Assembly (NCBI GenBank): GCA_964531715.1
Contig: CAZHEE010000008.1
Location: forward strand, 1,963-65,962
Reading direction: 5' to 3'
DNA from: an uncultured Micavibrio sp.
GTDB lineage: Bacteria; Pseudomonadota; Alphaproteobacteria; Micavibrionales; UBA1664
Length of the DNA: 64,000 nt
Numbering within the stretch: position 1 is the stretch's first letter; each line of letters opens with the position of its first letter. The translations under genes and the position numbers were made by a program. This document shows, one piece after another, positions 37,693 to 60,152 of this stretch. The notes below the pieces were generated by a model. The model was not told the DNA's origin, did no database searches, and saw only the letters and a program-made list of their open reading frames with translations.

Positions 37693-38946
37693 TTACTGAA
37701 TGCTGCCGCGATTTGCAGCTCTTATTTGAGCATTTGTATCTTTGATACGAGGATAAACCTCAACAGCCATTGCCGTTCCGGTATTTAAAACATTGAATTG
37801 CATCATTTCCAAAAGCTTAAAAAGCAAGCGGTTTGTCAGTGCCGCATTGTAGGAAAGATTAACCGCCAAGCCATCCGTGTTATTAACAACTTGTTGTGTA
37901 ATGAACCCTTGCCCCATCATGCCCATTGTAATGGCATCAAGCTGCGCCATGATACTTGCCCTATTATCCGCAATCAAAGATGTCACTTGTTCAGGACTTA
38001 AATTAGCCTCTGTAAGCATTTCTTCTATAAACGGAACTGCCCCCCCCGGGGATGACAAAGGTGTTTTTTCACCTCTTATTTTTGCAAAAGCCGCCTGCCC
38101 AATACCTAAAATAGCCCTGTTTCTTTCACTGGTTACAAATAATTCTTGTATTGTTTGACCGGGGTTATTGGCAATCAAATCAGGCAATAAAGCTTCCTGA
38201 ACTTGAGCGTAGAGAAGATTTTGCAAATATTCAAGTTGGTCACTATCGTCAGGAGCTTGGGGCGTGCCAATACCGATGTTCGGTGAGAATAAAAGTGTTC
38301 CTATACTAAGATGCTCGCTATCTGTCGAAGTACAAGCTGTCAGAACACCCCCGTTGGATTCTTGTTGACAGAATCCCATGGCTTGCTCAAATAATTGACG
38401 CGCCATATCCGCAGAGCCATTTGCAGCAATTGTGTTTTCACCACCCGCCAGAACAAGCATCCGCCTTGAAAGTTCTGATCGGGCGGTTTCACGCGAAATT
38501 GTTTCCGCATCACCCATATTCCCACTAATCGTAATGTAGGGACAAGCAATCTCATCAACACCCATTTGTTTGGTTGTAAGTCCTGCTACTGTGCCTTGTG
38601 AAACACCTATTCGGGAATTTGTGGAATGAGCGTTTGTTGCGCCAGAATTTGCATTGAGTGTTATTCCCTGAATAACAGTTAATTGCTCAGATAATTTGGC
38701 TATAGCAAGTCTTAATTCATCACTAAGCATATTAAGACTACTACCAACTATTTGTCCTAAACCATTAATGCCTTTATGTGTGCCTTTATCAGCAACACTT
38801 ATGCCAGTGCCTGCTGCACCGGCATCGGGGCTTTCATCTATAGAACTGGGAGGTGAAGTCGCACTTGAAGTGTTTGCAAAAAGCTCTCTCTCAATAAAAA
38901 AAACGAGAACGGTTAAACTCATTAATACAAAAAGAAAACGTTGCAT
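37693..38946 (-). CDS. Secreted hypothetical protein, possibly T4BSS-associated (IcmX/TraW-like is only a guess)
   Basis: The 417-aa product has the signal peptide MQRFLFVLMSLTVLVFFIERELFA. It is divergent from the icmL-like gene across a 239-bp AT-rich region. No motif was recognised. Confidence 0.6.
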   Translation of the reverse strand: MQRFLFVLMSLTVLVFFIERELFANTSSATSPPSSIDESPDAGAAGTGISVADKGTHKGINGLGQIVGSSLNMLSDELRLAIAKLSEQLTVIQGITLNANSGATNAHSTNSRIGVSQGTVAGLTTKQMGVDEIACPYITISGNMGDAETISRETARSELSRRMLVLAGGENTIAANGSADMARQLFEQAMGFCQQESNGGVLTACTSTDSEHLSIGTLLFSPNIGIGTPQAPDDSDQLEYLQNLLYAQVQEALLPDLIANNPGQTIQELFVTSERNRAILGIGQAAFAKIRGEKTPLSSPGGAVPFIEEMLTEANLSPEQVTSLIADNRASIMAQLDAITMGMMGQGFITQQVVNNTDGLAVNLSYNAALTNRLLFKLLEMMQFNVLNTGTAMAVEVYPRIKDTNAQIRAANRGSIQ

Positions 38947-39185
38947 TGTTCCTCAAAACATCATCAGGCTTACGTTAATATCAAGCCATCGGGTTAAATA
39001 TTACTCTTAAAATTATCATAAAATTCTTAATAATTTGTTATATTTTACTCAATATTCTGAACGATAGCTATCATAATTTATTTAAATTCTTTTTTTGTTT
39101 TTGATTTCAAACATAAGTAAGTGTTTTCAAAAAGGTTGAAAGCCATTATCATAACTTCATAAATAAATAGAAAAAATAAAAATTT

Positions 39186-39869
39186 ATGGTCGAAAAAAAA
39201 CCGATACCAAAAAGAGATAAAACACTGGCGGCGCAAAAACCCGAGGTTGACAGCCCACTTGGCAATGTTGTTATCCGAAACCAGTTTTATCGCGATGGTT
39301 ATCGTACACTTATTAAAATTGCGTTGTTTCAGGCGGCAATTATTTTGGGGCTACTGGTTGTGGTTGGAGTGTTTGTCAATACGCATCAACCTGTCCGTAC
39401 ATATTTTGCGACAACTGAGGACGGTCGCGTTATCCCGATGGTTCCCTTGTCCCAGCCGAATTTGACGCGTCCTGCGCTTTTGTCATGGGCGGCGCAATCG
39501 GCAACAGAGACAATGACATTCGGCTTTCACGATTATCGCCGTCGTCTTCAAGAATCATCCCGTCACTTTACACGCCGTGGCTGGGCCAGCTTTGCCCAAG
39601 CCTTGCAAGATTCGGGCATGATTGAAACGGTGACCGATAACAGACAGGTTATATCGGCCACGCCGCGGCAGGCACCGACAATTCTGGCCGAAGGGCTGTT
39701 GGCAAATGGTGTTTACAGATGGGAAGTCGAGATGCCGATGCTGATTACTTATGAGCTGGGTCAGACGCGCCGATCCAACAATATGAATATTCGTCTGGTC
39801 ATTGTCCGTGTGCCGAAGCTGGAAAGCACAAACGGTGTTGGCATTGAACAATGGATTGCGTATAACTAA
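39186..39869 (+). CDS. icmL: Type IVB secretion protein IcmL/DotI (TraM-like)
   Basis: The motif RNQFYRDGYR followed by a single TM is characteristic. The length is 227 aa, and this is the first gene of an L-K-E-G order. Confidence 0.85.
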   Translation: MVEKKPIPKRDKTLAAQKPEVDSPLGNVVIRNQFYRDGYRTLIKIALFQAAIILGLLVVVGVFVNTHQPVRTYFATTEDGRVIPMVPLSQPNLTRPALLSWAAQSATETMTFGFHDYRRRLQESSRHFTRRGWASFAQALQDSGMIETVTDNRQVISATPRQAPTILAEGLLANGVYRWEVEMPMLITYELGQTRRSNNMNIRLVIVRVPKLESTNGVGIEQWIAYN

Positions 39870-39930
39870 ATTTCAGGCTATAAATTAAGCTTACTAGTTA
39901 CCATAAGAAAATAATGTGAAGTTGAGTTGC

Positions 39931-41007
39931 ATGTCAGACCTAAAAACAATTAAATTTCTTGCCGCCGCTTTTACGTTTTTGGTTGTGCCTTTTCAGGTTC
40001 AGGCTCAAATTCCCAATCCGCTTGATCAATTCAGAACAAATAGTAACGAGCAGCAGGCTCAGCCACAACAACAGTCCCAACCGCGAAACCCGGATGATAT
40101 ACCGCCCCCGACAATCGGCGGCATGCAACAGCAAGGCTTAACCCAAGAGCAGATTAATCAGGCCTTGGCAGGCTATAACCTTGATGGCGGTATGACGCTG
40201 GAAGAGCGTCAGGCAGAGGCCGAGGCTCAAGCTAGAGAGTCAGCCTTTGAGGCTATGATGAACGGCGCCTTCCCTTTGAAACCGGAAGAAATCCGCGAAG
40301 TCTTGGAAGTTTTTAGAGAGGTGAGAGAGGCAAGCGAGAGCCGTATCGGTGGCGCGCCAAACCCTGAAATTACATTGGAATCCGTACCGCTGGACCCCGG
40401 GTCAACACCGCCGATTATCCAATTATCGCCGAATTATGTCACAACCCTCAATGTCCTTGATATTACAGGGCAACCATGGCCGATACAGGATATCAGCTGG
40501 GGCGGAAATTTTGAAATTCTCCAACCTGAAGACGGGGCGAATATTGTTCGGATCAGTCCCTTAAGGGCGCATGAGGTCGGTAATTTATCGGTTCGCCTTG
40601 TTGATTTGAACACGCCTGTTATATTCAGCCTTCAAAGCGATCTCGGCGATGTTGATGTCCGCTTTGATGCTCAAATCCCTGAATATGGACCGAATGCGGA
40701 AATGCCACTGATTGATAATGGCGGTATTCAAACCACGGCAGGGGATAATGAGATTATTCGTATTTTGGACGGTGTGCCACCATCTCAGGCAGAGAAGCTG
40801 GACGTCGATGGGGTTGACGGTCGGACAAGCGTTTATGAAGTAGACGGGCGCATTTATGTGCGCACGCCCCATACATTGCTTTCGCCCGGATGGTCTGGGA
40901 CAATCAAATCTGCCGATGGAACATCCGTTTATGCGATTAACCAGTCACCTGTTTTATTGCTGTCTGACAGAGGCAAAATGGTCAGGGCATTTGTTAATTA
41001 TAACTAA
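39931..41007 (+). CDS. icmK: Type IVB secretion protein IcmK/DotH (TraN-like)
   Basis: It has the signal peptide MSDLKTIKFLAAAFTFLVVPFQVQAQ, a Q-rich linker and a beta-rich C-terminal domain, and sits after icmL. An alternative GTG start lies at 39916. Confidence 0.75.
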   Translation: MSDLKTIKFLAAAFTFLVVPFQVQAQIPNPLDQFRTNSNEQQAQPQQQSQPRNPDDIPPPTIGGMQQQGLTQEQINQALAGYNLDGGMTLEERQAEAEAQARESAFEAMMNGAFPLKPEEIREVLEVFREVREASESRIGGAPNPEITLESVPLDPGSTPPIIQLSPNYVTTLNVLDITGQPWPIQDISWGGNFEILQPEDGANIVRISPLRAHEVGNLSVRLVDLNTPVIFSLQSDLGDVDVRFDAQIPEYGPNAEMPLIDNGGIQTTAGDNEIIRILDGVPPSQAEKLDVDGVDGRTSVYEVDGRIYVRTPHTLLSPGWSGTIKSADGTSVYAINQSPVLLLSDRGKMVRAFVNYN

Positions 41008-41043
41008 TTTATAAGAATAAGAATTAAGAATGGTTTTATACCG

Positions 41044-42372
41044 ATGAATGACTTTAAAGATGATGATTTTGATAACTTTGATGATGATTTTAGTGATTTC
41101 GATTCCGACTCATCAGAGACTTGGAAAAGTAATCCGCTTTTAAAAATCTTTCTTGTTGTCGGAGGGGTTATAGCCCTTATTGCGGCGGTTGCTATCTTTG
41201 CGGGCGGTGATGAAGATATCCCGTCACGTGTTGGCGGCGGACTTGACCAAAGTGAGACGTTAGGTGGTGAGATTTCGCAAAATTATGCAGAAGTACTGGA
41301 AGAAGTCAATCAACAGCGTTTGGAAGAGGCCGTTCAATCAGGCCAAAGCACGATTCCGATGTTAATCAACCCTGAGGAAACAGACCTCTTAACCCCGACC
41401 GAAGATTTGCCGCCGATGCAGGATTTTGACCCGCTTGCATCTTTCCGCGCAACAATGCAGGAGGAGGCTGAACCTGAACAACAGCAGGCTTTTACGGAAG
41501 AACCTGTCTTAATCGCACCTGAGCAGGTTTTTACACCTCAGGCTCAACCAATTCCTGCCCCTAACCCGGAAGCCGTACAAAATCTGGCGCAGGCCATGTC
41601 TGCCAATATAGGGGAGATTTTAGCCAATCATGCGCCTGGCCCTGCACGAATTGTTCAGGTCACATCTATGGAACAGCCTTTGGATGCAACTGCGTCAGGT
41701 AGCGGACAAGGCGGCAGGCTGGTCGATACAAACGGTGACGGCATTCCCGATACACCTGTCGATGATTTAATCGGTATTGATAGTGAAACTGGCGAAGTGG
41801 TTATTCAAAATGTTTTAGTTTCTGCAGGGACAATTAATTACGGGCAGGTTTTGATTGAGGCAAACAGCGATGTCCCAGGCCCTGTTTTGGTGCAATTAGT
41901 GTCAGGACCATTGGCAGGTGCTCGCCTGATCGGCAGTTTTGATGTCGTTGGTGATCTGCTTGTTCTTAATTTTAATTCAGTAGTCATTGACGGACTTAAT
42001 CAACCTGTCAGTGCCATCGCGCTTGACCCAAATACAACATTGCCCGGCATTGCAAGCGAAGTGAATAATCGCTATTTCAAGCGTGTGATTTTACCCGCCG
42101 CCGCCCGTTTCCTTGAAGGTGTTGGCTCTGCAATTGCGCAGGATGCCGAGACAACTGTGACAGTGTCAGGTGATACAGTTATTGAAGAGACAGAAGCCCT
42201 TGATTTTGAGCAGGAAATTGGGCGCGGGGTCGAGGAAGCCTTTGAAGAAGTGGCTGACTTTATGGAAGATGAGGCCGATGCAACGCGTGTTCTTGTTCGT
42301 GTTGCGCGCGGTACGCCTGTCGGGGTTTTCTTTCTCGAACCCGTGATTGAAATTGAGGATGGAGTGCAATAA
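41044..42372 (+). CDS. icmE: Type IVB secretion protein IcmE/DotG (TraO-like; VirB10/TrbI-like C-terminus), short form
   Basis: It has an acidic N-terminus, one TM, a P/Q-rich linker and a C-terminal TrbI-like region (GTINYGQVLIEANSDVPGPVLVQLVSGPLAGARLIGSF). Confidence 0.75.
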   Translation: MNDFKDDDFDNFDDDFSDFDSDSSETWKSNPLLKIFLVVGGVIALIAAVAIFAGGDEDIPSRVGGGLDQSETLGGEISQNYAEVLEEVNQQRLEEAVQSGQSTIPMLINPEETDLLTPTEDLPPMQDFDPLASFRATMQEEAEPEQQQAFTEEPVLIAPEQVFTPQAQPIPAPNPEAVQNLAQAMSANIGEILANHAPGPARIVQVTSMEQPLDATASGSGQGGRLVDTNGDGIPDTPVDDLIGIDSETGEVVIQNVLVSAGTINYGQVLIEANSDVPGPVLVQLVSGPLAGARLIGSFDVVGDLLVLNFNSVVIDGLNQPVSAIALDPNTTLPGIASEVNNRYFKRVILPAAARFLEGVGSAIAQDAETTVTVSGDTVIEETEALDFEQEIGRGVEEAFEEVADFMEDEADATRVLVRVARGTPVGVFFLEPVIEIEDGVQ

Positions 42373-43622
42373 TGGATAATAAGGACATCAATCAGGATTT
42401 CGACGATATATCATTCGAGGAAGAAGATTACGACTTTGAAGATGACGCTTTCGATGAGGGCGAATCTGACTACCCGGAACCAGTCAAAAAATCCTCATTA
42501 AATTGGTTTAACATTCTTATTTTCGGTGGATTGGCGATTGCTGTTATCGGCCTATCCTATATCTATCTTCCGTCTATTTTTGGCGGTGGCAATCAAGATG
42601 CGCAACAGCAAACTCCAGTCGTAGCCTCGGATACACTTCAACCAAGCGAACCAGCCTCGCAACAAAATATTGCTGAGGCTGCCGTGACGGATGAATTGAG
42701 CGGAAATGAAATTGCGGAAGGCGGATTGCTCGATAACCCTGATATGTTTGCCGATACGGATGACCAATTTATTTACATCTCGGCGCAAGAAGATAACGCG
42801 GTATTTGATGAGATTAACGCTCAACTGACAACGAATGCCGAAGATGATTTAGATATTTTTTTCCCGGATTTTGAGCCAGCTCAAAATAATGATCAACAAA
42901 CTATGGCAGAGATGGATGAAGTTTTCACGCCGGCCTTACCTGATATTAATGTGGCGAATAACACTCAAGAGGAGGTAAGGAATACAGTTCCTGCAGAGCC
43001 AATGGTTGTTATGACTGAGCCAATGGAAACACAAAGAATAGATGACCAGCCGCAAAATAACCTGCAAACGCCTTTAGAGAATAGTGAAATTGCGGAGATG
43101 AAGGCGACCATGAATATCTTGTCACAACAAATGGCGGATATAATGGATATGGTTCAAAGCCAGTCTGATGATAAGGGTTCTGATGACATATCAACATTAC
43201 AGACCAGTATTGAGCGGCTTGAAGCGCGCTTGCGTAGTTTGGAAGATAATACGCCACAGCAATCATCTGATACGGCTTCACAAACAAGGGAAGAGCTTGC
43301 CCAAGTTGAAGTCAATAATAATACGACACTACAAGAGTCTGAAACTATTGCATCGCCTGCGCCTCAACCTGTAAAAAAAGTTGAGGTTCGTGAGCCAAGA
43401 CCTGCCCAACCTGTTGTGGTCTCCACCCCTGAACGCTCCCGCATAAGCTGGCAATTGCGCGGTGCATCGCCTGAGCAAGCTTTTCTGGCCAATCAAGCCA
43501 ATGGCGCGGTGACGACCGTCAGCTTGGGGCAAACCGTTCCGGGCTTAGGACGTATTGAGAGCATTGCGGTTGAAAACGGGCGTTGGGTTGTTCGCGGCAC
43601 AAATGGTATTGTACGCCAGTAA
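42372..43622 (+). CDS. icmG: Type IVB secretion protein IcmG/DotF-like (TraP-like)
   Basis: It has an acidic N-terminus, one TM, a coiled-coil and a C-terminal block (WQLRGASPEQAFLA...VSLGQTVPGLGRIESI). It sits directly after the icmE-like gene, and the two share an ATGA start/stop overlap. Confidence 0.6.
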   Translation: MDNKDINQDFDDISFEEEDYDFEDDAFDEGESDYPEPVKKSSLNWFNILIFGGLAIAVIGLSYIYLPSIFGGGNQDAQQQTPVVASDTLQPSEPASQQNIAEAAVTDELSGNEIAEGGLLDNPDMFADTDDQFIYISAQEDNAVFDEINAQLTTNAEDDLDIFFPDFEPAQNNDQQTMAEMDEVFTPALPDINVANNTQEEVRNTVPAEPMVVMTEPMETQRIDDQPQNNLQTPLENSEIAEMKATMNILSQQMADIMDMVQSQSDDKGSDDISTLQTSIERLEARLRSLEDNTPQQSSDTASQTREELAQVEVNNNTTLQESETIASPAPQPVKKVEVREPRPAQPVVVSTPERSRISWQLRGASPEQAFLANQANGAVTTVSLGQTVPGLGRIESIAVENGRWVVRGTNGIVRQ

Positions 43623-43644
43623 TAGCCAACCACGGGTAATAGAT

Positions 43645-44073
43645 TCAGTCGTTAAAGTGACCATGGGTTTGTCTTTGATCGCTATATAATAACGTGTTGT
43701 TACCGCCTCCATGCTCCTGCATTGCGGCGCTGACGATTGAGACCACACCACCGAGCGCACCGCCATAAATTGTACCGCCGACAATTTTCGCAACAGGCGA
43801 CATTTGATCGCCCGTTAATGAGCGATAGGCTTTGTTAACAAAAGGGATATGTTGTAACGGGTTAAGGATATCAAGTAACTCGCTAAAGCCTAAGTTGGGT
43901 GGTATTCCAGTCTTATTGCCTTCATCATCCAATCTCAATGCCGGTGGCTGAAAAGCTGTACTTACACTATTATTATTTTGCCAATGGGCGGATGTCCCTG
44001 CCATGCGCTCTGGCGCAAAATGGCGTTCACGTGTATAAAACGGTTGAGGTAATATATTATTGGAACGATCCAT
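43645..44073 (-). CDS. Conserved hypothetical protein
   Basis: The 142-aa product carries the motif LLDILNPLQHIPFVNKAYRSLTGD followed by a Gly-rich hydrophobic segment. It resembles an uncharacterised alphaproteobacterial family from memory, which I could not verify. Confidence 0.5.
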   Translation of the reverse strand: MDRSNNILPQPFYTRERHFAPERMAGTSAHWQNNNSVSTAFQPPALRLDDEGNKTGIPPNLGFSELLDILNPLQHIPFVNKAYRSLTGDQMSPVAKIVGGTIYGGALGGVVSIVSAAMQEHGGGNNTLLYSDQRQTHGHFND

Positions 44074-44114
44074 CCATTCTCAAACTGCAAATTTCATGCC
44101 ATAGTCAGATTGTC

Positions 44115-44693
44115 ATGGTTTACCCGCATTGTAAAATAGCACTTGTTGATTTAGAGCCTGTTATCGCGGAGAGTTTGGGACAGGCTTTTGCCCTTAATTA
44201 TCAGCCGCCAATCGAAATTAAGAAGTTCAATTCGGTTAAAGACTTTGCCGAAACGCGAGAGACTTATAATCTTTGTATCAGCAATGAGTTGATATCGAAA
44301 GGCAACGCCGATTATTTTTATCATTACAATACCAAACAACGACATAGAATGGGTATTATACTCGATCAACTCGAAACCTTACTCCTTTCTCATCAAAGGT
44401 TTGACATCACTTATGGTGATTATTACCTGAACTATGATGACTCCCGGCTTTCTTTTCATGATCGGGATATACTATTAAGCGAACGCGAACGTGAGCTGGT
44501 CTTCATGCTCTTAAAGGGTACTGAGAACGGGCAAACAAAACAAACACTTTTGACATCAATTTGGGGATACGCGCCTGATATTGACACTCATACGCTTGAA
44601 ACCCATATTTATCGCCTGCGGCAAAAGATAGAGGACACGCCCGATAAACCGACGAGGCTTATCACAACGCATGACGGGTATAAGTTTCAATAG
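44115..44693 (+). CDS. OmpR/PhoB-type winged-helix DNA-binding protein with short, degenerate receiver-like N-terminus
   Basis: The C-terminal part ERERELVFMLL...TLLTSIWGYAPDIDTHTLETHIYRLRQKI...THDGYKFQ is a classic trans_reg_C domain. ATG 44115 is chosen because the longer ORF from 43899 overlaps the opposite-strand gene. Confidence 0.7.
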   Translation: MVYPHCKIALVDLEPVIAESLGQAFALNYQPPIEIKKFNSVKDFAETRETYNLCISNELISKGNADYFYHYNTKQRHRMGIILDQLETLLLSHQRFDITYGDYYLNYDDSRLSFHDRDILLSERERELVFMLLKGTENGQTKQTLLTSIWGYAPDIDTHTLETHIYRLRQKIEDTPDKPTRLITTHDGYKFQ

Positions 44694-44694
44694 C

Positions 44695-46566
44695 TTACTT
44701 CTTTTTCTTGCGCTGTTTCGGCTTTATTGTCTTGGTATCTTTATCACCATCATTATGATCAAGAATTTCCATTGCAGGGTTCACATCCGGCCCTTGGTCA
44801 ACCAATTCTTCGAGCCTTTCTTCAGAGCGCGAGCGCGTGAAGATATTAACCCGAACACCTTCTTTCCTGAGCAGATAATATTGTTGCAGACAGGATAGAA
44901 TGTTACTCCATGACCAGTAAATCACCAAGCCAACCGGGAATTTTGCGAGGATAATGGTTATCCAGAATGGCATAATGCCGAACACGAAACGTTGCGTTTT
45001 ATCCTGCGGCGGTGGTGACAAGCGTTGTTGTATCACAAGGGTTAGGCACATAATAATCGGCCATGCCCCGATATGAAGCCAAAGCGGCGCACCCCATGGG
45101 AGTAAACCGAACCCTTCAAAAAGATTGGTCGGGTCCATCGCGGACATATCGTCGATCCAACCCCAAAAAGGCTCATGCCGCATGCCGATATTCACATAGA
45201 ACACCTTGTAAAGTGCAAAGAAAATCGGGATTTGAATGAGCATCGGAATGCATCCTGCAACGGGATTCACTTGCTCTTTTTGATAAAGCTCGTAAATTGC
45301 TTGCTGCATCTTCACGCGGTCTTGACCGTATTTCTCGCGAATTTCAACCATCTGAGGGGTAATTTTACGCATCCGAGCGAATGATCGGAATGATTTTTGC
45401 GCTAGCGGGAATACCGCTAAACGAATAAGCACCGTAAAGATAAGCAGCGCGACCGCAAAATTCCCGACTTTCTCATTTAAAAAAGTCAAAACCTCATAAA
45501 AAGGTCTTGTTAGAAAATAAAGTATCCCGAAATCAACCGCCAAATCGAAATGCGGAATATTATATTGCGCGGCATAATCCTCCAGCATATTAACGATTTT
45601 CGGCCCTGCGAAAAACTCTATCGGCATAGTCACGGTTGCGCCTGCCTGAACAATCATCGGCGCGCCCATCATATCGGTTTGATAAAATGTCTCGCCATTC
45701 AATTGCGGACTGCCGGTAAAGCGATATTTTACGCTTGCCGTGTAGTCGCGTCCAGTTGTGAGCGCGGCGAGCCAATATTTATCCGTCATCCCGATCCATC
45801 CTTGGTCTGCGGAAATCGTTGTATTCTCGCCTTTGTCGAGGTCTTTATAATCAACCTCAAACAGCTCGTCACCGATGTAGCCAATCGGACCTTCATGGAG
45901 GATAAATGCCCCCGTCATATCGGCAGGCAAGCCCATCCGCCCGACCAAAGCAAACGGATAAAGCGTGATTGCACGGTCGGTCGTGTTACGCACGCCTTGG
46001 TCAATCGTGAACATATAATCATCATCAAGGGTGATTGTTTTTGTGAATTGTAAACCGTTGGGGCTGTCCCACGTTAAAGTCACAGGTTCGTTCGGTTGTA
46101 TTGTTGAGCCGTTTGCTTCCCAAAGAGTATCCTTATTCGGTACGGCAATGGCAGGGTCGGCGGCAACCCAGCCGAACTGCCCGTAATAACCATGAGGACC
46201 AGAAGTAGGGTTGAGAAGCTCCACCATCTCATTCCCATTCGGCACGGTCATATAATTTTTGAGCGCGATATCATCGATGCGCGCCCCTTTGAGGCGCAGG
46301 CTTCCTGTGATCGTTTCGCTTTCTATTGCCAAGCGGCTATTGGCTTGAAGGGCTTCATCACGTGATAGGGCAGGCGCGTTCAGACTCTCGATAATCTCGG
46401 GATTATTTTGAATAAATTCGGCTTGCTCTTCTTGAAACTGCCGCAATGCTTCTTGCCGCGGTTGAAACACAAAATGGTCAAAGGCCAGATAAACACCGAT
46501 CACGGCAAAGAAGAATAAAACCATATTCCTCATATCTTGCGGGTGCATAAATTCTTTTTGTTGCAT
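44695..46566 (-). CDS. yidC: Membrane protein insertase YidC
   Basis: The 623-aa product has an N-terminal TM, a large periplasmic domain and a conserved 5-TM C-terminal core. It lies downstream of yidD. Confidence 0.95.
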   Translation of the reverse strand: MQQKEFMHPQDMRNMVLFFFAVIGVYLAFDHFVFQPRQEALRQFQEEQAEFIQNNPEIIESLNAPALSRDEALQANSRLAIESETITGSLRLKGARIDDIALKNYMTVPNGNEMVELLNPTSGPHGYYGQFGWVAADPAIAVPNKDTLWEANGSTIQPNEPVTLTWDSPNGLQFTKTITLDDDYMFTIDQGVRNTTDRAITLYPFALVGRMGLPADMTGAFILHEGPIGYIGDELFEVDYKDLDKGENTTISADQGWIGMTDKYWLAALTTGRDYTASVKYRFTGSPQLNGETFYQTDMMGAPMIVQAGATVTMPIEFFAGPKIVNMLEDYAAQYNIPHFDLAVDFGILYFLTRPFYEVLTFLNEKVGNFAVALLIFTVLIRLAVFPLAQKSFRSFARMRKITPQMVEIREKYGQDRVKMQQAIYELYQKEQVNPVAGCIPMLIQIPIFFALYKVFYVNIGMRHEPFWGWIDDMSAMDPTNLFEGFGLLPWGAPLWLHIGAWPIIMCLTLVIQQRLSPPPQDKTQRFVFGIMPFWITIILAKFPVGLVIYWSWSNILSCLQQYYLLRKEGVRVNIFTRSRSEERLEELVDQGPDVNPAMEILDHNDGDKDTKTIKPKQRKKKK

Positions 46567-46633
46567 GGGATAAGTACGCTCTTTAATTATTTTAGCGCGA
46601 CAATAGCGCAGGATGGATAGCCCTGCAATGGCG

Positions 46634-46912
46634 TTAATGCTCTTTTACATCAGGCACGGGATCGTGCCCCTGACACTTATGCCAGTGCCTGTCATTCAAC
46701 GGATGACACTTTGAAAGTCGTTTTAAGCCAAGCCAGGCGCCTTTCATACTGCCATGCGTTTGAATAGCCTCAATCATATATGCAGAGCATGTCGGCACAT
46801 AGCGGCAATTCTTACCGAATAGGGGTGACAAAGTAACTTGATAAAGCCTCACCAAACTAATGAGCATTTTTCTTATAATCATGGTCACGATTATTATCGA
46901 ATAAACTTGCAT
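46634..46912 (-). CDS. yidD: Membrane protein insertion efficiency factor YidD
   Basis: The motifs LVRLYQVTLSPLFGKNCRYVPTCSAYMIEAI and KCHPL are present. The true start may be an internal Met at 46882 or 46867. Confidence 0.85.
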   Translation of the reverse strand: MQVYSIIIVTMIIRKMLISLVRLYQVTLSPLFGKNCRYVPTCSAYMIEAIQTHGSMKGAWLGLKRLSKCHPLNDRHWHKCQGHDPVPDVKEH

Positions 46913-46978
46913 CGGTAAAGTTTCATTAATATAAGTATATTATGCTAATTGGCGAAATAACAGGTTATCCCTAAGAAA

Positions 46979-47881
46979 ATGGCAACATCAAAGCATGATA
47001 AGCAGGCACTGGCGGATTTATTCATCCATATGGGTGTGCCTCTCATTACATCTATCCAAACGGTAGAGAGCTGGTCAGGCGGTGAGGCCGAGCCACAGGT
47101 TCAACGCGCTGAAAAGCTCGCGAAGCTTCTTAATGTTTCGGTTGATTTCGCAACCAAAGTAACGAAGAAGCTTGAAATTCGGGATGCTTATACGCTTGAA
47201 AATGTCCGTGGGCGCATAATCCGTATCGTAACGCCCATTATTGGCGATTATTATGTAACGAATGGCAGCCTGCCTGAAGAGGACGCGCTCAACAGCTTGA
47301 CCGACTTATTTGATGTGTTAATATCATTTGCATCCTCTGTGTCACCAACGGATGAAAAGGGCTCAAAATCCAGTAAGATTGCACTCCTGATCGAACAATC
47401 CGCGCCTTTGATTGACGCTATCCGCGCGAATAATCTGGGTCAAAAAGAGCCTGATATTTTCACAAACTCAGTAGACGGGATTAAAACCCGTGCAGAGCAA
47501 TTGGCAGAATCGCTTGGTCAAGCTGACGGTATTGAAAGCGGCTTGTATAAGGCTGTTTTGGCTGTCTTTACCTCATCTTATAAACAAATAGCGGAGAAAG
47601 AAGGCACTTTGGATGATGTCTGGAACGAATGTGACCAGCGTCTTATTTTAATTCAGGGGCTGACGGCCTTTGTGGGTGATAAGGCAGGCATTGATAAGGG
47701 TGAGAAAACCAAAGCTCAAACACCTGCGAAAACAAAAGAGGAAAAAGAACCGGAGAAAAAAGAAACATCACCATCGGAAGAATCGAAGAAATCCAATGAT
47801 AATAATGGCGATAGCGATGATAGTGATGACGATGCGGATGACGGTGATTTTAACCCGATGGCGTTTTTTTCAGGCGGATAA
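46979..47881 (+). CDS. Hypothetical protein with K/E-rich then poly-acidic C-terminal tail
   Basis: The 300-aa ORF is co-oriented with and 15 nt upstream of the lytic transglycosylase-dotDCB block. Its tail reads ...NGDSDDSDDDADDGDFNPMAFFSGG. Confidence 0.6.
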   Translation: MATSKHDKQALADLFIHMGVPLITSIQTVESWSGGEAEPQVQRAEKLAKLLNVSVDFATKVTKKLEIRDAYTLENVRGRIIRIVTPIIGDYYVTNGSLPEEDALNSLTDLFDVLISFASSVSPTDEKGSKSSKIALLIEQSAPLIDAIRANNLGQKEPDIFTNSVDGIKTRAEQLAESLGQADGIESGLYKAVLAVFTSSYKQIAEKEGTLDDVWNECDQRLILIQGLTAFVGDKAGIDKGEKTKAQTPAKTKEEKEPEKKETSPSEESKKSNDNNGDSDDSDDDADDGDFNPMAFFSGG

Positions 47882-47896
47882 AGTAGCGATAGCCTC

Positions 47897-48313
47897 ATGC
47901 TTCTCAATCAAATATTTGCAACTTGCCTGATGGTCGCGGCACAAAATTATGCCATACCGCCGCAAGTCCTGATTGGGATCCTCCATGTTGAGGGCGGTAA
48001 GGTGGGGCAGCAGGTGCGCAACACAAACGGTACTTATGATTTAGGCCCGATGCAAATTAACACGCTATGGACAAAGGTTTTGGCTGAGGAATGGGGGGTT
48101 TCTCGCTCTTATGCCCATCGTGTCATCCGTGATGACCCTTGCACCAATGTGAATGTCGCCGCATGGATTTTTCGCAAAAACTGGAACGAGGCAAAATCAC
48201 TATCAAAGGCAATCGCCTGGTATAACTCCCGAACGCCGCATATCGGGCGCGCCTATCGCCTGAAAGTCATTGCCGCCATGCGCAGGAATAACCTGCTCGA
48301 GCCCAAAGGATAA
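47897..48313 (+). CDS. Lytic transglycosylase (SLT domain), secretion-system-associated type
   Basis: The candidate catalytic region HVEGGKVG and the motif YDLGPMQIN are present. The length is 138 aa, and it lies upstream of dotD. Confidence 0.75.
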   Translation: MLLNQIFATCLMVAAQNYAIPPQVLIGILHVEGGKVGQQVRNTNGTYDLGPMQINTLWTKVLAEEWGVSRSYAHRVIRDDPCTNVNVAAWIFRKNWNEAKSLSKAIAWYNSRTPHIGRAYRLKVIAAMRRNNLLEPKG

Positions 48314-48418
48314 AGGCACACATTAGAGAATTGAGCTTTTTACGAAAAAAGAAGAATAAAAAGCTTTCGATTTTTGGCGAGATAGTCGATAATCATAAGC
48401 CTGTGAAGCTTTAATAAA

Positions 48419-48949
48419 ATGAATAAAGAAATATTAAAAAGTAAAATGACATTCAGAATACTTCCTTTCCTTACCGCACCTTTATTGGTTTTGACATCCT
48501 GTGCCTATATGCCGATTGCGCAACCTCAAATGGTGGCGGAGCCTGATACGGCCGACCTGATGCTTGCCGATGCGGCAGATCGTGCGACACGCGCCCTCGA
48601 AACGCTTTCGGCGATGGAACGTACGCAATTGCCTGCGGCTTCTCAAGCGGCGATTGTGCCAAACGCCCCTCAGGAGCTTCGCCGTGCTGTCACATTTGAC
48701 TGGGTCGGACCTGTTGAGCCACTGGTTGAGGAGCTGACCCGCAAAAGCGGTTATCGCTATAATGTTATCGGGAAGGAACCTGCAACGCCGATTATTGTGA
48801 CGATGAGCGCGATTAACAAACCGCTGATTAACGTGTTTCGCGATGTCGGGATACAGCTTGGCGCACGGGCGGATATCAAAGTTGATGCCTCGACAAGAAT
48901 GGTTGAACTTCAATATAATGATTTTGCCAATAACAGGAATGACCAGTAA
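48419..48949 (+). CDS. dotD: Type IVB secretion lipoprotein DotD (TraH-like)
   Basis: It has the lipobox LVLTSCA and a C-terminal secretin-N0-like domain (VTFDWVGPVEPLVEELTRKSGY...). It abuts the dotC-like gene (TAAATG). Confidence 0.75.
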   Translation: MNKEILKSKMTFRILPFLTAPLLVLTSCAYMPIAQPQMVAEPDTADLMLADAADRATRALETLSAMERTQLPAASQAAIVPNAPQELRRAVTFDWVGPVEPLVEELTRKSGYRYNVIGKEPATPIIVTMSAINKPLINVFRDVGIQLGARADIKVDASTRMVELQYNDFANNRNDQ

Positions 48950-49804
48950 ATGACCGAGCGCGGACGTTTTCATGTTTTTAGTATCGCACTTATCCTGCTG
49001 ATATTTTTCCTGCCGTTGATGGCAATGGCGGCAATGGATCCAACCAAAGGCGAAGTATCGAACCTGACCCTCTCGGAACTGATTGAGCAAACCGCAAATG
49101 TTAATCCGGTCGATGATTTGGCTGATACGTTGGAGCCATCACAAATTCGTATGGATGCGATTAAGCAAGCCGCGCTGTCATACGGCGCACGTGCAGGTCT
49201 AGCCAAACGAACGGAAATTATCCGTGAAACACTTGATGCCAAGGCAGGCGCGATGGATCAGATTTATGATTTCGGGCGCCTCCTTATTCCCGCGCCGTCC
49301 GGTCTGATGATTGAACCGCCAATTATCAGTGAGGGGGAGGACGCCACCCTGATTGAAAGCGGAGGGCAAACCGCCGCCGTCGCTGACCGGATTTTTCAGA
49401 TTAACCGCAATGCGCGGATTGTCTCAACCGCGCGAAACTGGCGTGCCTATCTTGAGCGTGAATGGGGTAATATTGACCTGCCCCCTCGAGTCTTGTTTCC
49501 TCGCACAAATGAGGAGCGGAAAGTCTGGGTTGAGTATTTGACAAGAGGCTGGAACGAGGGCATGGCGCAGGCTGATGAGATTTTTCAGGCGGATTTGAAT
49601 AAACTTGTTTCCGATTATACGGGCATGGTGCGCTATCGTAAATTGCTGTCGATGAATATTGTGTCCGCGCCTTATGCGTTGCAGGTTGACCGTGGCGTAA
49701 CGGGCGGCGGTGATGAAATGCGTATCGGTGACCGCGCAATTGAGATTACAGGCCCGTCGCAATTGATGACAGAGGCATATGAATGGCAACCCGTAAGCCG
49801 ATAA
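48950..49804 (+). CDS. dotC: Type IVB secretion protein DotC (TraI-like)
   Basis: The 284-aa product has a signal peptide and lies between the dotD-like and dotB-like genes, as in Legionella dotDCB. It contains no cysteine, so it cannot be a lipoprotein. Confidence 0.7.
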   Translation: MTERGRFHVFSIALILLIFFLPLMAMAAMDPTKGEVSNLTLSELIEQTANVNPVDDLADTLEPSQIRMDAIKQAALSYGARAGLAKRTEIIRETLDAKAGAMDQIYDFGRLLIPAPSGLMIEPPIISEGEDATLIESGGQTAAVADRIFQINRNARIVSTARNWRAYLEREWGNIDLPPRVLFPRTNEERKVWVEYLTRGWNEGMAQADEIFQADLNKLVSDYTGMVRYRKLLSMNIVSAPYALQVDRGVTGGGDEMRIGDRAIEITGPSQLMTEAYEWQPVSR

Positions 49805-50943
49805 GCCTCCTTAAAGGGGAGAATAATGCGGGTGAAACCTGGCCTGATGAACCTGTCCGCTTTTTGGAGGAGCATGTTGACCCCTTCTTATTATGGTGTA
49901 TATCAAAAGGCTCATCCGATGTCACAATTCAATCGGACAGGACGGTTTATAACGAGATTTCGGGAAAACTTTATCCCGGAACGTATCGACCGCTCGATTC
50001 TGCGGAAATAAACGCTTTTCTCAATAAAATTTATGGACCTGAAGCGCTTGCAAAGCTTGCATCGGCCAATGATCTTGACTTATCCTATGAAATTCGCCCT
50101 GACCGATATTCGCGTAGCCGTTTCCGTGTTAATATTACGGCCGTTCTGTCTCGTGGGCGTGACTCGGTTCAAATCACAATGCGTGTACTGCCGTCCGACC
50201 CACCGACATTTAAGCAGCTGGGCATCGAGGATGAGATTATCAAGGCCTGGAATCCGCGTCAGGGTATGATTGTCGTAACAGGGCCGACAGGGTCTGGTAA
50301 AACGACATTGCTTGCCGCAGGTATCCGTCATCTTCTTGAAGAGCGTAACGGTTGCGGCAAGGTTTTGACCTATGAAGCGCCGATTGAATATACCTACGAT
50401 AATATTAACAGCCCGCATTCCCTGATTTCCCAATCTGAAATTCCCCGCCATTTGCCTGACTTTTACAAAGGCGTGCGTAATGCCCTTCGCCGTAAACCTG
50501 AAATTATTCTGGTGGGTGAAGCCCGTGACCGTGAAACGATCAGTGCGGCGATTGAGGCAGGGCAAACAGGGCATACAGTCTATACAACGACCCATACAAC
50601 AGGGGTTGCGGCAACCATCCGTCGAATGATATCAACCTTTGAACCCGAAGAACGGGCGGAGCGTGCCTATGCGTTGATGGAAACGGTGCGCCTTGTGGTT
50701 ACACAAGCCCTCGTGCCGAAAATCGGTGGTGGGCGCCTTGGTGTGCGTGAATGGATGGTGTTTGACGATAATGTTCGCGAGAAAATGCTCGAAATGGATT
50801 ATAATCAGTGGAGCCCGGAGATACAGCGGATGATTGACCAATATGGCCGCACAATGGAAAAATCCGCAACACAAGCCTTTGAGGCGAATTTGATTGAACG
50901 CCGCCCATACCTCATGCTCGCCAATTCTACCGGCGGGGGGTAG
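49783..50943 (+). CDS. dotB: Type IVB secretion ATPase DotB (PilT/VirB11-like)
   Basis: The Walker A motif GPTGSGKTT, the Walker B / Asp box region ILVGEARD and the His box TGHTVYTTTH are present. It overlaps dotC by 22 nt. Confidence 0.9.
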   Translation: MATRKPISLLKGENNAGETWPDEPVRFLEEHVDPFLLWCISKGSSDVTIQSDRTVYNEISGKLYPGTYRPLDSAEINAFLNKIYGPEALAKLASANDLDLSYEIRPDRYSRSRFRVNITAVLSRGRDSVQITMRVLPSDPPTFKQLGIEDEIIKAWNPRQGMIVVTGPTGSGKTTLLAAGIRHLLEERNGCGKVLTYEAPIEYTYDNINSPHSLISQSEIPRHLPDFYKGVRNALRRKPEIILVGEARDRETISAAIEAGQTGHTVYTTTHTTGVAATIRRMISTFEPEERAERAYALMETVRLVVTQALVPKIGGGRLGVREWMVFDDNVREKMLEMDYNQWSPEIQRMIDQYGRTMEKSATQAFEANLIERRPYLMLANSTGGG

Positions 50944-52680: not shown

Positions 52681-52682
52681 AA

Positions 52683-60122: not shown

Positions 60123-60152
60123 ATAATAATAAAGATAACGGGGGAGTCGATA

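What the first reader, a model, noticed from the sequence alone, without database searches (positions are those of the whole stretch)
37693..50943. Dot/Icm-type (type IVB) secretion genes in an alphaproteobacterium-like chromosome, split into two blocks that sandwich yidD-yidC
**Seen in sequence**
- Co-oriented ORFs match icmL/dotI (RNQFYRDGYR plus one TM), icmK/dotH, icmE/dotG (VirB10/TrbI-like C-terminus) and icmG/dotF in motif, size and order.
- About 4 kb further on lie a lytic transglycosylase, dotD (lipobox plus N0-like domain), dotC and dotB (PilT-like ATPase).

**Established**
- The orders L-K-E-G and D-C-B are those of Legionella regions II and I and of IncI tra genes.

**Inference**
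- Surrounding genes are alphaproteobacterial hallmarks: a Mic60-like gene after hemCD, a PodJ-like protein, DUF1674, a DUF2794-like protein, and a small FlhB-like gene beside flgB.
- This would therefore be a chromosomal T4BSS outside the Legionellales.
- yidD-yidC lacks its usual rpmH-rnpA upstream neighbours and is flanked on both sides by T4BSS DNA. That suggests the secretion genes were inserted into, or rearranged around, a core locus.
- dotA, dotL/M/N/O, icmT, icmB and others are not in the window.
Basis: partly seen in the sequence, partly recalled or inferred. Interest (0 to 1): 0.7.

Follow-up and report, generated by a model that had tools for sequence, protein, structure and literature searches.

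The report
Dot/Icm-type secretion genes in Micavibrio-like bacterium
The window carries genuine, intact genes for the envelope-spanning core of a Legionella-type (type IVB) protein-injection machine, in the chromosome of an uncultured relative of the predatory alphaproteobacterium Micavibrio; this machine turns out to be widespread and old in that lineage but has never been studied there.

Summary
Profile searches recover IcmL/DotI, IcmK/DotH, a short IcmE/DotG, IcmG/DotF, a lytic transglycosylase, DotD, DotC and DotB at the stated coordinates. They form two co-oriented operons on either side of yidD-yidC.

- **Host:** the rest of the window is an ordinary alphaproteobacterial chromosome with the same base composition as the secretion genes. 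I found no relaxase, coupling protein, nearby integrase or tRNA.
- **Relatives:** the closest are uncultured "Micavibrio"/Alphaproteobacteria genomes. A pattern scan of GTDB species representatives found icmL-K-E(-G) in 68 of them. About 40 continue with icmC-D-J-B, as in Legionella.
- **Prior knowledge:** the system is old and vertically inherited in this lineage, not an oddity of this window. It was noted once in passing, as "seven Micavibrionales" with pT4SSi (Needham 2022).
- **The yidDC sandwich:** it is real but reflects rearrangement, not recent insertion. The dotDCB-yidDC junction is shared with marine relatives, and icm-region linkage to yidDC or to the small gene pair beside icmG recurs in distant relatives.
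- **Extra finding:** the unannotated gene upstream of icmL belongs to a large secreted-protein family that forms arrays of up to five paralogs beside icmL. It may be IcmX-like, on weak evidence.

Verdict: new member of a known kind. Function and target are unknown.

The parts
37693..38946 (-). u417: a signal-peptide protein of 417 aa, transcribed divergently from icmL. It belongs to a large T4BSS-linked secreted-protein family and is a possible distant IcmX/TraW counterpart.
   Evidence: It has no Pfam, NCBIfam or PDB sequence match. The family has 166 members in 48 of 77 loci, always in arrays of 1-5 upstream of icmL. It has 868 representatives in the 1.84-billion-protein library. 154 of 159 members have an N-terminal hydrophobic segment, and three Cys are nearly invariant.
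39186..39869 (+). icmL/dotI: inner-membrane T4BSS component with one TM segment.
   Evidence: PF11393 E=6.5e-61. NF038072 scores 185.8 bits against a cutoff of 175. TM segment at about residues 39-70. It is 78-81% identical to L003-L005.
39916..41007 (+). icmK/dotH: outer-membrane core-complex protein. The likely true start is the ATG at 39931, giving 358 aa.
   Evidence: PF12293 E=5.8e-76. The database copy P0001 is 358 aa. There are 762 homologs, the best at 74% identity. ATG position.
41044..42372 (+). icmE/dotG, short form of 442 aa: an acidic cytoplasmic N-terminus, one TM segment and a VirB10/TrbI-like C-terminal domain.
   Evidence: PF03743 scores 36.6 bits against a cutoff of 35. NF033900 E=3.7e-37 on model positions 755-1004. 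TraO E=4.3e-24. TM segment.
42372..43622 (+). icmG/dotF: an acidic N-terminus, one TM segment, a Pro-rich linker, a coiled coil and a C-terminal beta domain.
   Evidence: NF038218 E=2.8e-5. PDB DotF E=0.013. The profile of 30 positional orthologs hits DotF 7muc with E=8.5e-11 as the top PDB match.
43645..44073 (-). u142: a small conserved protein of unknown function, paired with the regulator next to it.
   Evidence: No Pfam match. Homologs with the same partner follow icmG in L049, follow icmB in L117 and L128, and follow yidC in L075.
44115..44693 (+). Reg: an OmpR/PhoB-type winged-helix regulator of about 192 aa with an unmatched N-terminal half. The mechanical ORF starts at 43899. It is a candidate regulator of the locus, by inference only.
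   Evidence: PF00486 E=2.4e-15 on the C-terminus, with no Response_reg match. Alternative start. Co-occurrence with u142 beside icm genes.
44695..46912 (-). yidC (44695-46566) and yidD (46634-46912): core membrane-insertase genes between the two T4BSS blocks. They are context, not part of the machine.
   Evidence: PF14849, PF02096 and PF01809. rpmH and rnpA are absent from the window.
46979..47881 (+). u300: first gene of the dotD-C-B operon, with an acidic C-terminal tail and no signal peptide. Function unknown.
   Evidence: Only weak family hits and no PDB hit. It is conserved at the same position only in L073, L074 and L079 (56-68% identity).
47897..48313 (+). Lytic transglycosylase (SLT domain, TrbN/IagB-like), probably for local peptidoglycan remodelling.
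   Evidence: PF01464 E=6.9e-9. NF010463 TrbN E=6.5e-24. It is adjacent to dotD in L018, L019, L021, L022, L025, L052, L073 and L079.
48419..48949 (+). dotD: outer-membrane lipoprotein of the core complex.
   Evidence: PF16816 E=2.8e-32. NF033882 E=1.9e-33. Lipobox LTSC. It scores 78 bits against L. adelaidensis DotD and 32 bits against IncI TraH.
48950..49804 (+). dotC: core-complex protein with a signal peptide. No lipobox Cys was seen.
   Evidence: PF16932 E=5.9e-75. It is 36% identical to L. adelaidensis DotC (E=1e-49, 156 bits), against 99 bits for IncI TraI. N-terminus.
49783..50943 (+). dotB: PilT-like hexameric secretion ATPase.
   Evidence: TIGR02524 E=2.8e-118 at 395 bits, against TraJ at 254 bits. 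It is 47% identical to L. adelaidensis DotB and 31-33% identical to IncI TraJ. Walker A GPTGSGKT.

Best explanation
The region encodes part of a chromosomal, vertically inherited Dot/Icm-type type IVB secretion system. The host is an uncultured alphaproteobacterium of the Micavibrio lineage (Micavibrionales in GTDB usage), sampled from a microbial mat.

**What the two operons supply**
- the outer-membrane cap: DotC, DotD and DotH/IcmK;
- the periplasm-spanning parts anchored in the inner membrane: a short DotG/IcmE and DotF/IcmG;
- the inner-membrane component DotI/IcmL;
- the cytoplasmic ATPase DotB;
- a dedicated lytic transglycosylase.

**What is probably encoded elsewhere (inferred from relatives, not shown for this organism)**
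- IcmB/DotO, IcmJ/DotN and IcmC/IcmD-like proteins;
- DotA-like and IcmT-like proteins;
- a coupling protein.

**Function (inferred)**
- The machine most likely translocates proteins into a contacted target cell, not DNA.
- The target is unknown. It could be bacterial prey or a eukaryote.

**Arrangement (inferred)**
- The layout around yidD-yidC results from old linkage followed by local rearrangement.
- In this clade icmC-D-J-B no longer follow icmG, and the yidDC segment is inverted relative to icmLKEG.

**Likely accessory genes (inferred)**
- the divergent upstream gene u417;
- the u142-regulator pair;
- the operon-leading gene u300.
For: **Identity of the parts**
- Supported.

**Closer to Dot/Icm than to IncI conjugation genes**
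- Bit scores against L. adelaidensis DotD/C/B are 78, 156 and 350. Against IncI TraH/I/J they are 32, 99 and 194.
- NCBIfam scores DotB at 395 bits against 254 for TraJ, and IcmE at 128 against 85 for TraO.

**Chromosomal and native**
- The surrounding genes are housekeeping genes.
- T4BSS genes have mean GC 0.482 and GC3 0.458. The other genes have 0.460±0.039 and 0.447±0.074.
- No tRNA or Rfam element is present.
- The only integrase-family gene is a XerC/D-type gene next to DUF484, about 20 kb away.

**Lineage-wide conservation**
- 68 GTDB species representatives carry icmL-K-E(-G). Nearly all are labelled Micavibrio, Alphaproteobacteria, Pseudobdellovibrionaceae or Bdellovibrionales.
- NCBI taxonomy files Micavibrio under Bdellovibrionales, which explains those labels.
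- T4BSS and core-gene identities fall together. In L073, DotB is 88% and YidC 66% identical. On the 78.8-kb contig, IcmK is 55% and YidC 56%. In UBA6147, IcmK is 50% and YidC 51%. In L016, IcmK is 54% and RpsA 66%.

**Missing parts exist in relatives**
- IcmJ and a TraQ-like IcmC are present.
- A 997-aa protein at the IcmB position is 28% identical to IncI TraU over 967 aa, E=2e-102. It is found in 34 loci.
- DotA-like and IcmT-like genes are present.

**Assembly is sound**
- An independent 3.7-kb contig from the same sample matches.
- Independent Logan contigs cover the icmG|u142|Reg|yidC junctions at an even depth of about 4-5x.
- The same dotDCB|yidDC junction appears in ENA and Logan assemblies from other samples.

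**Prior detection**
- MacSyFinder detected relaxase-less pT4SSi in seven marine Micavibrionales (PMC9418006).
Against: - Only 8 core genes are in the window. IcmB/DotO, the coupling protein and DotA were not found for this organism, so completeness here is unproven.
- In this clade the canonical icmC-D-J-B continuation is missing after icmG.
- DotB and IcmE score below NCBIfam's equivalog cutoffs.
- There is no expression evidence. Three metatranscriptomes from the same sample have no contig on the region, and the organism is rare, at about 4-5x DNA depth.
- The cultured M. aeruginosavorus ARL-13 was reported to have no type IV secretion system (PMC3189940). The system is therefore not needed for epibiotic predation in at least that species.
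- No substrate or target is known.
- Organism placement rests on best hits, contig co-location and alphaproteobacterial marker genes, not on a phylogeny.
Confidence: 0.8

Rival explanations
1. The genes are the mating-pair-formation module of an integrated IncI-like (MPF_I) conjugative element or its remnant, and they move DNA, not effector proteins.
For: - All the genes have IncI counterparts in the same order: TraH-I-J and TraM-N-O-P.
- IcmE is the size of TraO (442 vs 429 aa), not the size of Legionella DotG.
- The lytic transglycosylase is TrbN-like.
- PilV/Shufflon_N-like genes lie near the icm locus in one relative, L076.
Against: - The window has no relaxase, coupling protein, type IVb pilus cluster, flanking integrase, tRNA or repeats.
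- The composition is host-like.
- The genes sit among different housekeeping genes in different genomes: guaA/putA in L004 and cmk-rpsA in L016.
- They are conserved in 68 species.
- The proteins score higher against Legionella Dot than against IncI Tra.
- MacSyFinder classed the Micavibrionales systems as relaxase-less pT4SSi.
Confidence: 0.07
2. The two blocks are a non-functional, decaying remnant of an ancestral T4BSS. In this clade the locus has been fragmented and icmC-D-J-B have been lost.
For: - icmG is followed directly by non-T4BSS genes here and in L003-L005. In about 40 other genomes icmC-D-J-B follow it.
- M. aeruginosavorus ARL-13 reportedly has no T4SS, so loss does occur in the lineage.
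- No transcripts were detected.
Against: - All eight ORFs are full length compared with their homologs, with intact motifs: Walker A, lipobox, signal peptides and TM segments.
- Between the window and L073 the T4BSS proteins are better conserved than YidC: DotB 88%, SLT 85%, DotC 77% and DotD 74%, against YidC 66%. This argues for purifying selection.
- The operon structure is tight, with gaps of 46, 36, -1, 15, 105, 0 and -22 nt.
Confidence: 0.1
3. The contig is an assembly or binning chimera that joins gammaproteobacterial (Legionellales-like) T4BSS DNA to an alphaproteobacterial chromosome.
For: - The organism has low coverage, about 4-5x.
- Two Logan contigs have loose ends, at 33475 and 43917.
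Against: - Independent contigs cover every inspected junction with even depth.
- The loose-end sequences match nothing in the window.
- The same dotDCB|yidDC junction occurs in unrelated samples.
- The nearest T4BSS homologs are themselves embedded in alphaproteobacterial chromosomes of up to 2.5 Mb.
- The composition is uniform.
Confidence: 0.02

Closest known systems
Dot/Icm type IVB secretion system of Legionella, Coxiella and other deep-branching intracellular Gammaproteobacteria
   Same: - The component families are the same: DotB, DotC, DotD, DotF, DotG C-terminal domain, DotH and DotI.
- The sub-orders L-K-E-G and D-C-B are the same. In most Micavibrionales the full L-K-E-G-C-D-J-B order is present.
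- The system is chromosomal and no relaxase was seen.
- The window's proteins score higher against Legionella homologs than against IncI homologs.
   Different: - The host is an alphaproteobacterium of a lineage known for preying on bacteria, not an intracellular gammaproteobacterium.
- DotG is short (442 aa) and lacks the long repeat region. It matches only model positions 755-1004.
- DotC has no lipobox Cys.
- A lytic transglycosylase and an unknown acidic-tailed gene lead the dotD operon.
- A family of secreted paralogs sits upstream of icmL where Legionella has icmM.
- Identity to Legionella is only 28-47%.
- IcmS, IcmW, IcmQ and IcmR were not looked for.
IncI1 plasmid (R64/ColIb-type) Tra/Trb conjugation system (MPF_I)
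   Same: - The families and orders are homologous: TraH-I-J and TraM-N-O-P.
- IcmE is the size of TraO.
   Different: - The window has no relaxase, coupling protein, thin-pilus genes or plasmid backbone.
- Similarity is lower than to Dot/Icm. DotB is 31-33% identical to TraJ against 47% to DotB.
- The genes are embedded in a chromosome and conserved across an order.
pT4SSi systems detected by MacSyFinder in marine genomes (Needham et al. 2022, PMC9418006), including 'seven Micavibrionales'
   Same: This is very probably the same system in the same lineage. It is relaxase-less MPF_I-type and chromosomal.
   Different: - That paper only lists the hits. It gives no anatomy, synteny or function.
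- The present window comes from a microbial mat, not the ocean.
- I could not check which genomes they list, because the supplement is not held.
Bacteria-killing type IVA systems of Xanthomonas, Stenotrophomonas and Lysobacter (X-T4SS). This is a functional analogy only.
   Same: It is a contact-dependent T4SS that injects toxic effectors into rival or prey bacteria. That is the role a T4BSS might play in a predator. The literature is cited in PMC12428579.
   Different: It is a different T4SS class (VirB/D4-type, IVA). No XVIPCD-type effectors or immunity pairs were sought or seen here. The analogy is untested.

Membership tests
Type IVB (Dot/Icm, MPF_I) secretion system | Outer-membrane core proteins DotC, DotD and DotH/IcmK | tested here: met
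   PF16932 E=5.9e-75, PF16816 E=2.8e-32 and PF12293 E=5.8e-76, all far above the gathering scores. The lipobox is in DotD.
Type IVB (Dot/Icm, MPF_I) secretion system | DotG/IcmE with a VirB10/TrbI-like C-terminal domain, and DotF/IcmG | tested here: met
   TrbI scores 36.6 bits against a cutoff of 35, and NF033900 gives E=3.7e-37 as a partial match. The DotF profile-to-PDB search gives E=8.5e-11. IcmE is a short form.
Type IVB (Dot/Icm, MPF_I) secretion system | DotI/IcmL inner-membrane component | tested here: met
   NF038072, an equivalog model, scores 185.8 bits against a cutoff of 175. PF11393 gives E=6.5e-61.
Type IVB (Dot/Icm, MPF_I) secretion system | DotB/TraJ-type PilT-like ATPase | tested here: met
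   TIGR02524 is the best family at 395 bits, although below the equivalog cutoff of 463. Identity to Legionella DotB is 47%, and Walker A is present.
Type IVB (Dot/Icm, MPF_I) secretion system | VirB4-family ATPase IcmB/DotO | tested here: inconclusive
   It is not in the 64-kb window. It is present at the canonical position in 34 related loci and is 28% identical to TraU, E=2e-102. A metagenome scan did not recover a contig from the window's own sample.
Type IVB (Dot/Icm, MPF_I) secretion system | Coupling-protein complex (DotL/IcmO, DotM, DotN) | tested here: inconclusive
   None is in the window. IcmJ/DotN is present in 39 related loci. DotL and DotM were not searched for in relatives.
Type IVB (Dot/Icm, MPF_I) secretion system | DotA and IcmX (protochannel) | tested here: inconclusive
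   There is no DotA in the window. DotA-like proteins of 913-931 aa follow icmG in L006, L008, L011, L012 and L014. The u417 family gives only weak IcmX/TraW signals.
Type IVB (Dot/Icm, MPF_I) secretion system | Translocation of protein substrates into a target cell | not testable with these tools
   This needs a translocation reporter assay in a cultured representative.
IncI-type conjugative transfer system | Relaxase (NikB/MOBP), oriT, coupling protein TrbC and a thin-pilus (pil) cluster linked to the tra genes | tested here: not met
   Pfam scans of the window's ORFs found none. The flanks are housekeeping genes.
Legionellales (organism membership) | Core genes group with Legionellales | tested here: not met
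   - YidC and IcmK best hits are alphaproteobacterial or Micavibrio-labelled genomes.
- YidC homolog P0162 lies on the same 966,943-bp contig as the Micavibrio sp. UBA6147 icm locus.
- A Mic60-like gene follows hemC-hemD. That this is an alphaproteobacterial trait is my own knowledge.
- No formal phylogeny was run.
IcmX/TraW family (for gene 37693-38946) | Detectable sequence or fold similarity to IcmX/TraW | tested here: inconclusive
   - 2 of 36 members hit NF033888 conj_TraW at E=1e-3.
- L. adelaidensis IcmX ranks first of 195 ORFs against the family HMM, with E=7e-4, or 0.03 with a deeper profile.
- hhalign probability is under 1%.
- With an AF2 model of pLDDT 78, the Foldseek PDB search ranks IcmX chain 9ngy_AP1 second of 350,542 chains. 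The match itself is not significant: E=0.8, TM 0.16.

The most novel reading that the evidence does not exclude
In the Micavibrio lineage the Dot/Icm-type machine is a weapon or feeding device aimed at other bacteria, or at a microbial eukaryote, not a tool of intracellular life. The tandem arrays of up to five secreted IcmX-like paralogs beside icmL would encode interchangeable periplasmic or surface-exposed channel/tip components that set target range. This would make T4BSS an ancient contact-dependent injection system shared by two unrelated 'cell-attacking' lineages, and not a hallmark of intracellular Gammaproteobacteria.
Probability: 0.25. Interest if true: 0.85.

Novelty: new member of a known kind. 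Interest (0 to 1): 0.55.

Why it matters
Recent reviews present the protein-secreting T4BSS as a landmark of deep-branching intracellular Gammaproteobacteria such as Legionellales, Piscirickettsia and Fangia (PMC11338181, PMC8896642).

This work shows a native, conserved and probably complete T4BSS across an alphaproteobacterial order. The only cultured members of that order are obligate epibiotic predators of bacteria. Three questions follow:
- What is injected, and into whom?
- Is the system older than, or laterally shared with, the Legionellales system?
- Do many uncultured 'Micavibrio' actually interact with eukaryotes?

The work also yields a large, unannotated, T4BSS-linked secreted-protein family of at least 868 sequence clusters. 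That family is a concrete target for structural and genetic study.

Tried and rejected
- **Exact look-up of DotB:** the window's DotB was not on record.
- **tRNA and Rfam scans:** nothing was found, so there is no tRNA-flanked island.
- **First structure prediction of u417:** AlphaFold with a 3-sequence alignment gave pLDDT 35 and was unusable. A 73-sequence alignment gave pLDDT 78, but no significant PDB fold match followed.
- **Last word-indexed homolog search:** I spent it on the u417 alignment and it returned only 3 proteins, because the candidate list was saturated.
- **PDB searches for u417 and u300:** sequence and profile searches found nothing.
- **hhalign of u417 against IcmX and TraW:** not significant.
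- **Reference sequences:** R64 (AP005147) is not in the plasmid collection. IcmX has no tblastn relative among plasmids except itself, so no IcmX profile could be built.
- **Expression:** three metatranscriptomes from the same sample have no contig on the region. This is uninformative at that depth.
- **Metagenome scan with an IcmB profile:** it did not recover a contig from the window's own sample, so completeness in this organism stays open.
- **Loose contig ends at 33475 and 43917:** I tested them as a possible deletion variant. They match nothing in the window.
- **Promoter/terminator scan:** uninformative.
- **Literature:** Pasternak 2014 is not held, and the supplement of Needham 2022 that lists the Micavibrionales genomes is not held.
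- **Readings rejected:** a recent horizontal insertion, an ICE, an assembly chimera and a Legionellales host. The rival explanations give the reasons.

Full report
**1. Observation**

icmL/dotI (39186-39869) passes NCBIfam's IcmL-only equivalog cutoff. icmK/dotH (39916-41007) gives PF12293 E=5.8e-76. Its probable true start is 39931.

icmE/dotG (41044-42372) is a short form. It has an acidic N-terminus, one TM segment and a TrbI/VirB10-like C-terminal domain that matches only the last quarter of the Legionella DotG model.

icmG/dotF (42372-43622) is weak as a single sequence: NF038218 E=2.8e-5, and PDB DotF E=0.013. I aligned 30 positional orthologs from related genomes. The resulting profile hits L. 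pneumophila DotF (7muc) as the best of all PDB sequences, E=8.5e-11.

The second block holds these genes:
- an SLT-domain lytic transglycosylase;
- dotD, with lipobox LTSC;
- dotC;
- dotB, with Walker A GPTGSGKT and 47% identity to L. adelaidensis DotB.

Gene spacing is operon-like in both blocks. yidC and yidD lie between the blocks. rpmH and rnpA are nowhere in the window.

The orders D-C-B and L-K-E-G match an annotated Legionella record and an IncI plasmid.

**2. Host and context**

The rest of the window is ordinary chromosome. It holds:
- truA, cmk, rpsA, sdhB, rsmB, rapZ and xerC/D with DUF484;
- flgB/flgC/fliE, a small FlhB-C-terminal gene and fliP;
- bamB, asmA and a PodJ-like Sel1 plus PG-binding protein;
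- a TolC-AcrB-AcrA efflux pump;
- hemC-hemD followed by a Mitofilin/Mic60-like gene;
- tsaD and gpsA.

No tRNA or Rfam element is present. GC, GC3 and codon usage of the T4BSS genes are indistinguishable from the other genes.

The window comes from a JGI microbial-mat metagenome. Independent contigs from the raw runs cover the region evenly at about 4-5x, including the icmG/u142/regulator/yidC junctions.

**3. Relatives**

IcmK has 762 database homologs, the best at 74% identity. The few that carry names are 'Alphaproteobacteria bacterium' MAGs.

A pattern scan of 185,579 GTDB species representatives with an IcmK alignment returned 68 loci. Almost all are MAGs labelled Micavibrio, Alphaproteobacteria, Pseudobdellovibrionaceae or Bdellovibrionales. 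NCBI taxonomy still files Micavibrio under Bdellovibrionales, which explains the last two labels. The best match is Micavibrio sp. UBA1664, at 73% for IcmK and 81% for IcmL.

All 68 loci have icmL-K-E and nearly all have icmG. About 40 continue with an IcmC/TraQ-like gene, a small IcmD-position gene, IcmJ/DotN and a protein of about 1000 aa. That large protein is 28% identical to IncI TraU (=IcmB/DotO) over 967 residues, E=2e-102. This is the full Legionella order L-K-E-G-C-D-J-B.

DotA-like and IcmT-like genes also occur in these loci.

T4BSS and core-protein identities fall together across genomes. This points to vertical inheritance.

The window's DotD, DotC and DotB score about twice as high against Legionella Dot proteins as against IncI TraH, TraI and TraJ.

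**4. The yidDC sandwich**

YidC's closest homologs (61-66% identity) fall into two context types.

- **Type A** (L073, L074, L079). The arrangement is DotB<-DotC<-DotD<-SLT<-u326 | yidD-> (small ORF) yidC-> <-Sel1/PodJ-like. This is exactly the window's right-hand junction. Identities to the window are DotB 88%, SLT 85%, DotC 77%, DotD 74%, YidC 66% and u300 56%.
- **Type B** (L071, L072, L080, L081). No T4BSS gene lies next to yidDC.

More distant relatives show other forms of the same linkage.
- One 78.8-kb contig carries u426<- icmLKEG about 19 kb upstream of a canonical rpmH-rnpA-yidD-yidC. The u142-homolog/regulator pair follows it.
- In L083 and L092 the complete icmL...icmB region lies about 5 kb upstream of yidD-yidC.
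- In L117 and L128 icmB is followed by the u142-regulator pair. In L049 icmG is followed by that pair, as in the window.
- In the closest icmK relatives, icmLKEG sits between guaA and putA (L004). In L016 it sits next to cmk-rpsA.

So the T4BSS, the u142-regulator pair and yidDC have been neighbours for a long time in this lineage. The window shows a contracted and partly inverted version of that neighbourhood. In it, icmC-D-J-B no longer follow icmG, and the dotDCB operon has replaced rpmH-rnpA upstream of yidD. The sequence of events is inferred. I found no second genome with both blocks touching yidDC.

**5. An unannotated accessory family**

The gene upstream of icmL (37693-38946, minus strand) has a signal peptide and no Pfam, NCBIfam or PDB match.

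Iterative searches of the fetched loci found 166 family members in 48 loci. They always form arrays of one to five paralogs, transcribed divergently from icmL. 154 of 159 complete members have an N-terminal hydrophobic segment. Three cysteines are nearly invariant, which fits a periplasmic or extracellular location.

An exhaustive HMM search found 868 cluster representatives. They share a conserved C-terminal domain of about 310 residues and have variable N-terminal extensions.

The evidence for a link to IcmX/TraW is convergent but weak.
- 2 of 36 members hit NCBIfam conj_TraW at E=1e-3.
- L. adelaidensis IcmX is the top hit among 195 control ORFs, at E=7e-4, or 0.03 with a deeper profile.
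- An AlphaFold model built on 73 sequences (pLDDT 78, all-helical) places the IcmX chain of the DotA-IcmX protochannel structure 9ngy second of 350,542 PDB chains. The scores are not significant: E=0.8, TM 0.16.
- hhalign is not significant.

I rate an IcmX-like role at roughly even odds.

**6. Mechanism**

*Shown.* The window encodes homologs of the proteins that in Legionella build the outer-membrane cap and periplasmic ring (DotC, DotD, DotH, DotF, DotG). It also encodes an inner-membrane component (DotI), the DotB ATPase and a peptidoglycan-cutting enzyme.

*Inferred from relatives.* The energising and substrate-recruiting parts (DotO, DotL/M/N, DotA) are encoded elsewhere in the genome.

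*Inferred from family knowledge and the absence of a relaxase.* The machine translocates proteins into a contacted cell.

*Unknown.* The target is not known. The only cultured Micavibrio are epibiotic predators of Gram-negative bacteria. However, the sequenced strain ARL-13 was reported to lack any T4SS (PMC3189940). The T4BSS is therefore not required for that mode of predation. It may serve another interaction, for example with protists.

**7. Comparison with what is known, and novelty**

Reviews treat the protein-secreting T4BSS as a hallmark of deep-branching intracellular Gammaproteobacteria. The only mention I found of the system in this lineage is one sentence in Needham et al. 2022, listing 'seven Micavibrionales' among marine genomes with pT4SSi. 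Literature searches on Micavibrio or Micavibrionales with secretion terms found nothing else.

The window is therefore a new member of a known kind. The system is real, native and conserved, but already detectable with standard profiles and already noticed once. What remains open and interesting is its function in a predator lineage, its evolutionary relation to the Legionellales system, and the IcmL-linked paralog family.

**8. Limits**

- No phylogeny was computed.
- Organism placement rests on best hits, contig co-location and marker genes.
- Completeness in this organism is unknown.
- There are no expression data.
- The GTDB scan used two IcmK peptide patterns. Its count of 68 is a lower bound within the lineage and says nothing about other lineages.

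Noticed in passing
window 37693-38946 (-); arrays in L002, L016-L019, L022, L025-L027, L031-L035, L043-L070 upstream of icmL: A large unannotated secreted-protein family forms tandem arrays of 1-5 paralogs transcribed divergently from icmL. It has 166 members in 48 loci and 868 cluster representatives in public data. There are weak hints of a relation to IcmX/TraW.
   Followed up: yes
window 51853-53720 (-): A DUF7192 protein and an AAA_5/CbbQ-C (MoxR-like) ATPase form a tight gene pair between the AraC/GyrI-like regulator and the Mic60-like gene. Their GC3 (0.33) is lower than that of their neighbours, and their function is unknown.
   Followed up: no
window 58096-58584 (+) and 6047-6835 (-): There are two compositional outliers. 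One is a PNPOx-like gene with GC 0.32 and GC3 0.20, wedged between tsaD and gpsA. The other is a 262-aa ORF with GC 0.36 and no Pfam match. Either could be foreign or fast-evolving.
   Followed up: no
window 33475 and 43917: Two Logan contigs from the same sample run off into about 255 bases that match nothing in the window. These could be strain variants or graph artefacts. They do not join to each other as a deletion variant would.
   Followed up: partly
window 59721-60566 (+): Two tandem single-domain response-regulator (receiver-only) genes sit next to a HIT-family gene and an M29 peptidase gene. In type-B relatives the M29 and HIT genes lie directly downstream of yidC.
   Followed up: no
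window 41044-41140 and 42372-42490: IcmE and IcmG both begin with strongly acidic, Phe/Asp-rich cytoplasmic tails (for example DDDFDNFDDDFSDFDSD). The acidic N-terminus is conserved in the IcmG orthologs of the lineage and aligns with the N-terminus of Legionella DotF.
   Followed up: partly
window 46979-47881 (+): The gene that leads the dotD operon (u300) has no signal peptide and ends in an acidic tail followed by hydrophobic residues (...DDSDDDADDGDFNPMAFFSGG). It is found only in the window and its closest yidC-linked relatives. It also has a weak RstR-like HTH hit at residues 25-70.
   Followed up: partly
L076 267-3059: In a relative with 55% IcmK identity, two genes with Shufflon_N (PilV-like pilin N-terminal) domains lie about 6 kb upstream of the icm locus. 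They recall the thin-pilus adhesins of IncI plasmids.
   Followed up: no
L014 10812-16524; L006, L008, L011, L012 after icmG: In one subgroup of the lineage, DotA-like proteins of 913-931 aa directly follow icmG in place of icmC-D-J-B. L014 has two in tandem. The same subgroup lacks the u417-family array upstream of icmL.
   Followed up: partly
window 31753-33354 / 33176-36307 (-): The mechanical TolC-like ORF overlaps the acrB ORF by about 180 nt. The true outer-membrane-factor start is probably downstream of the listed TTG.
   Followed up: no
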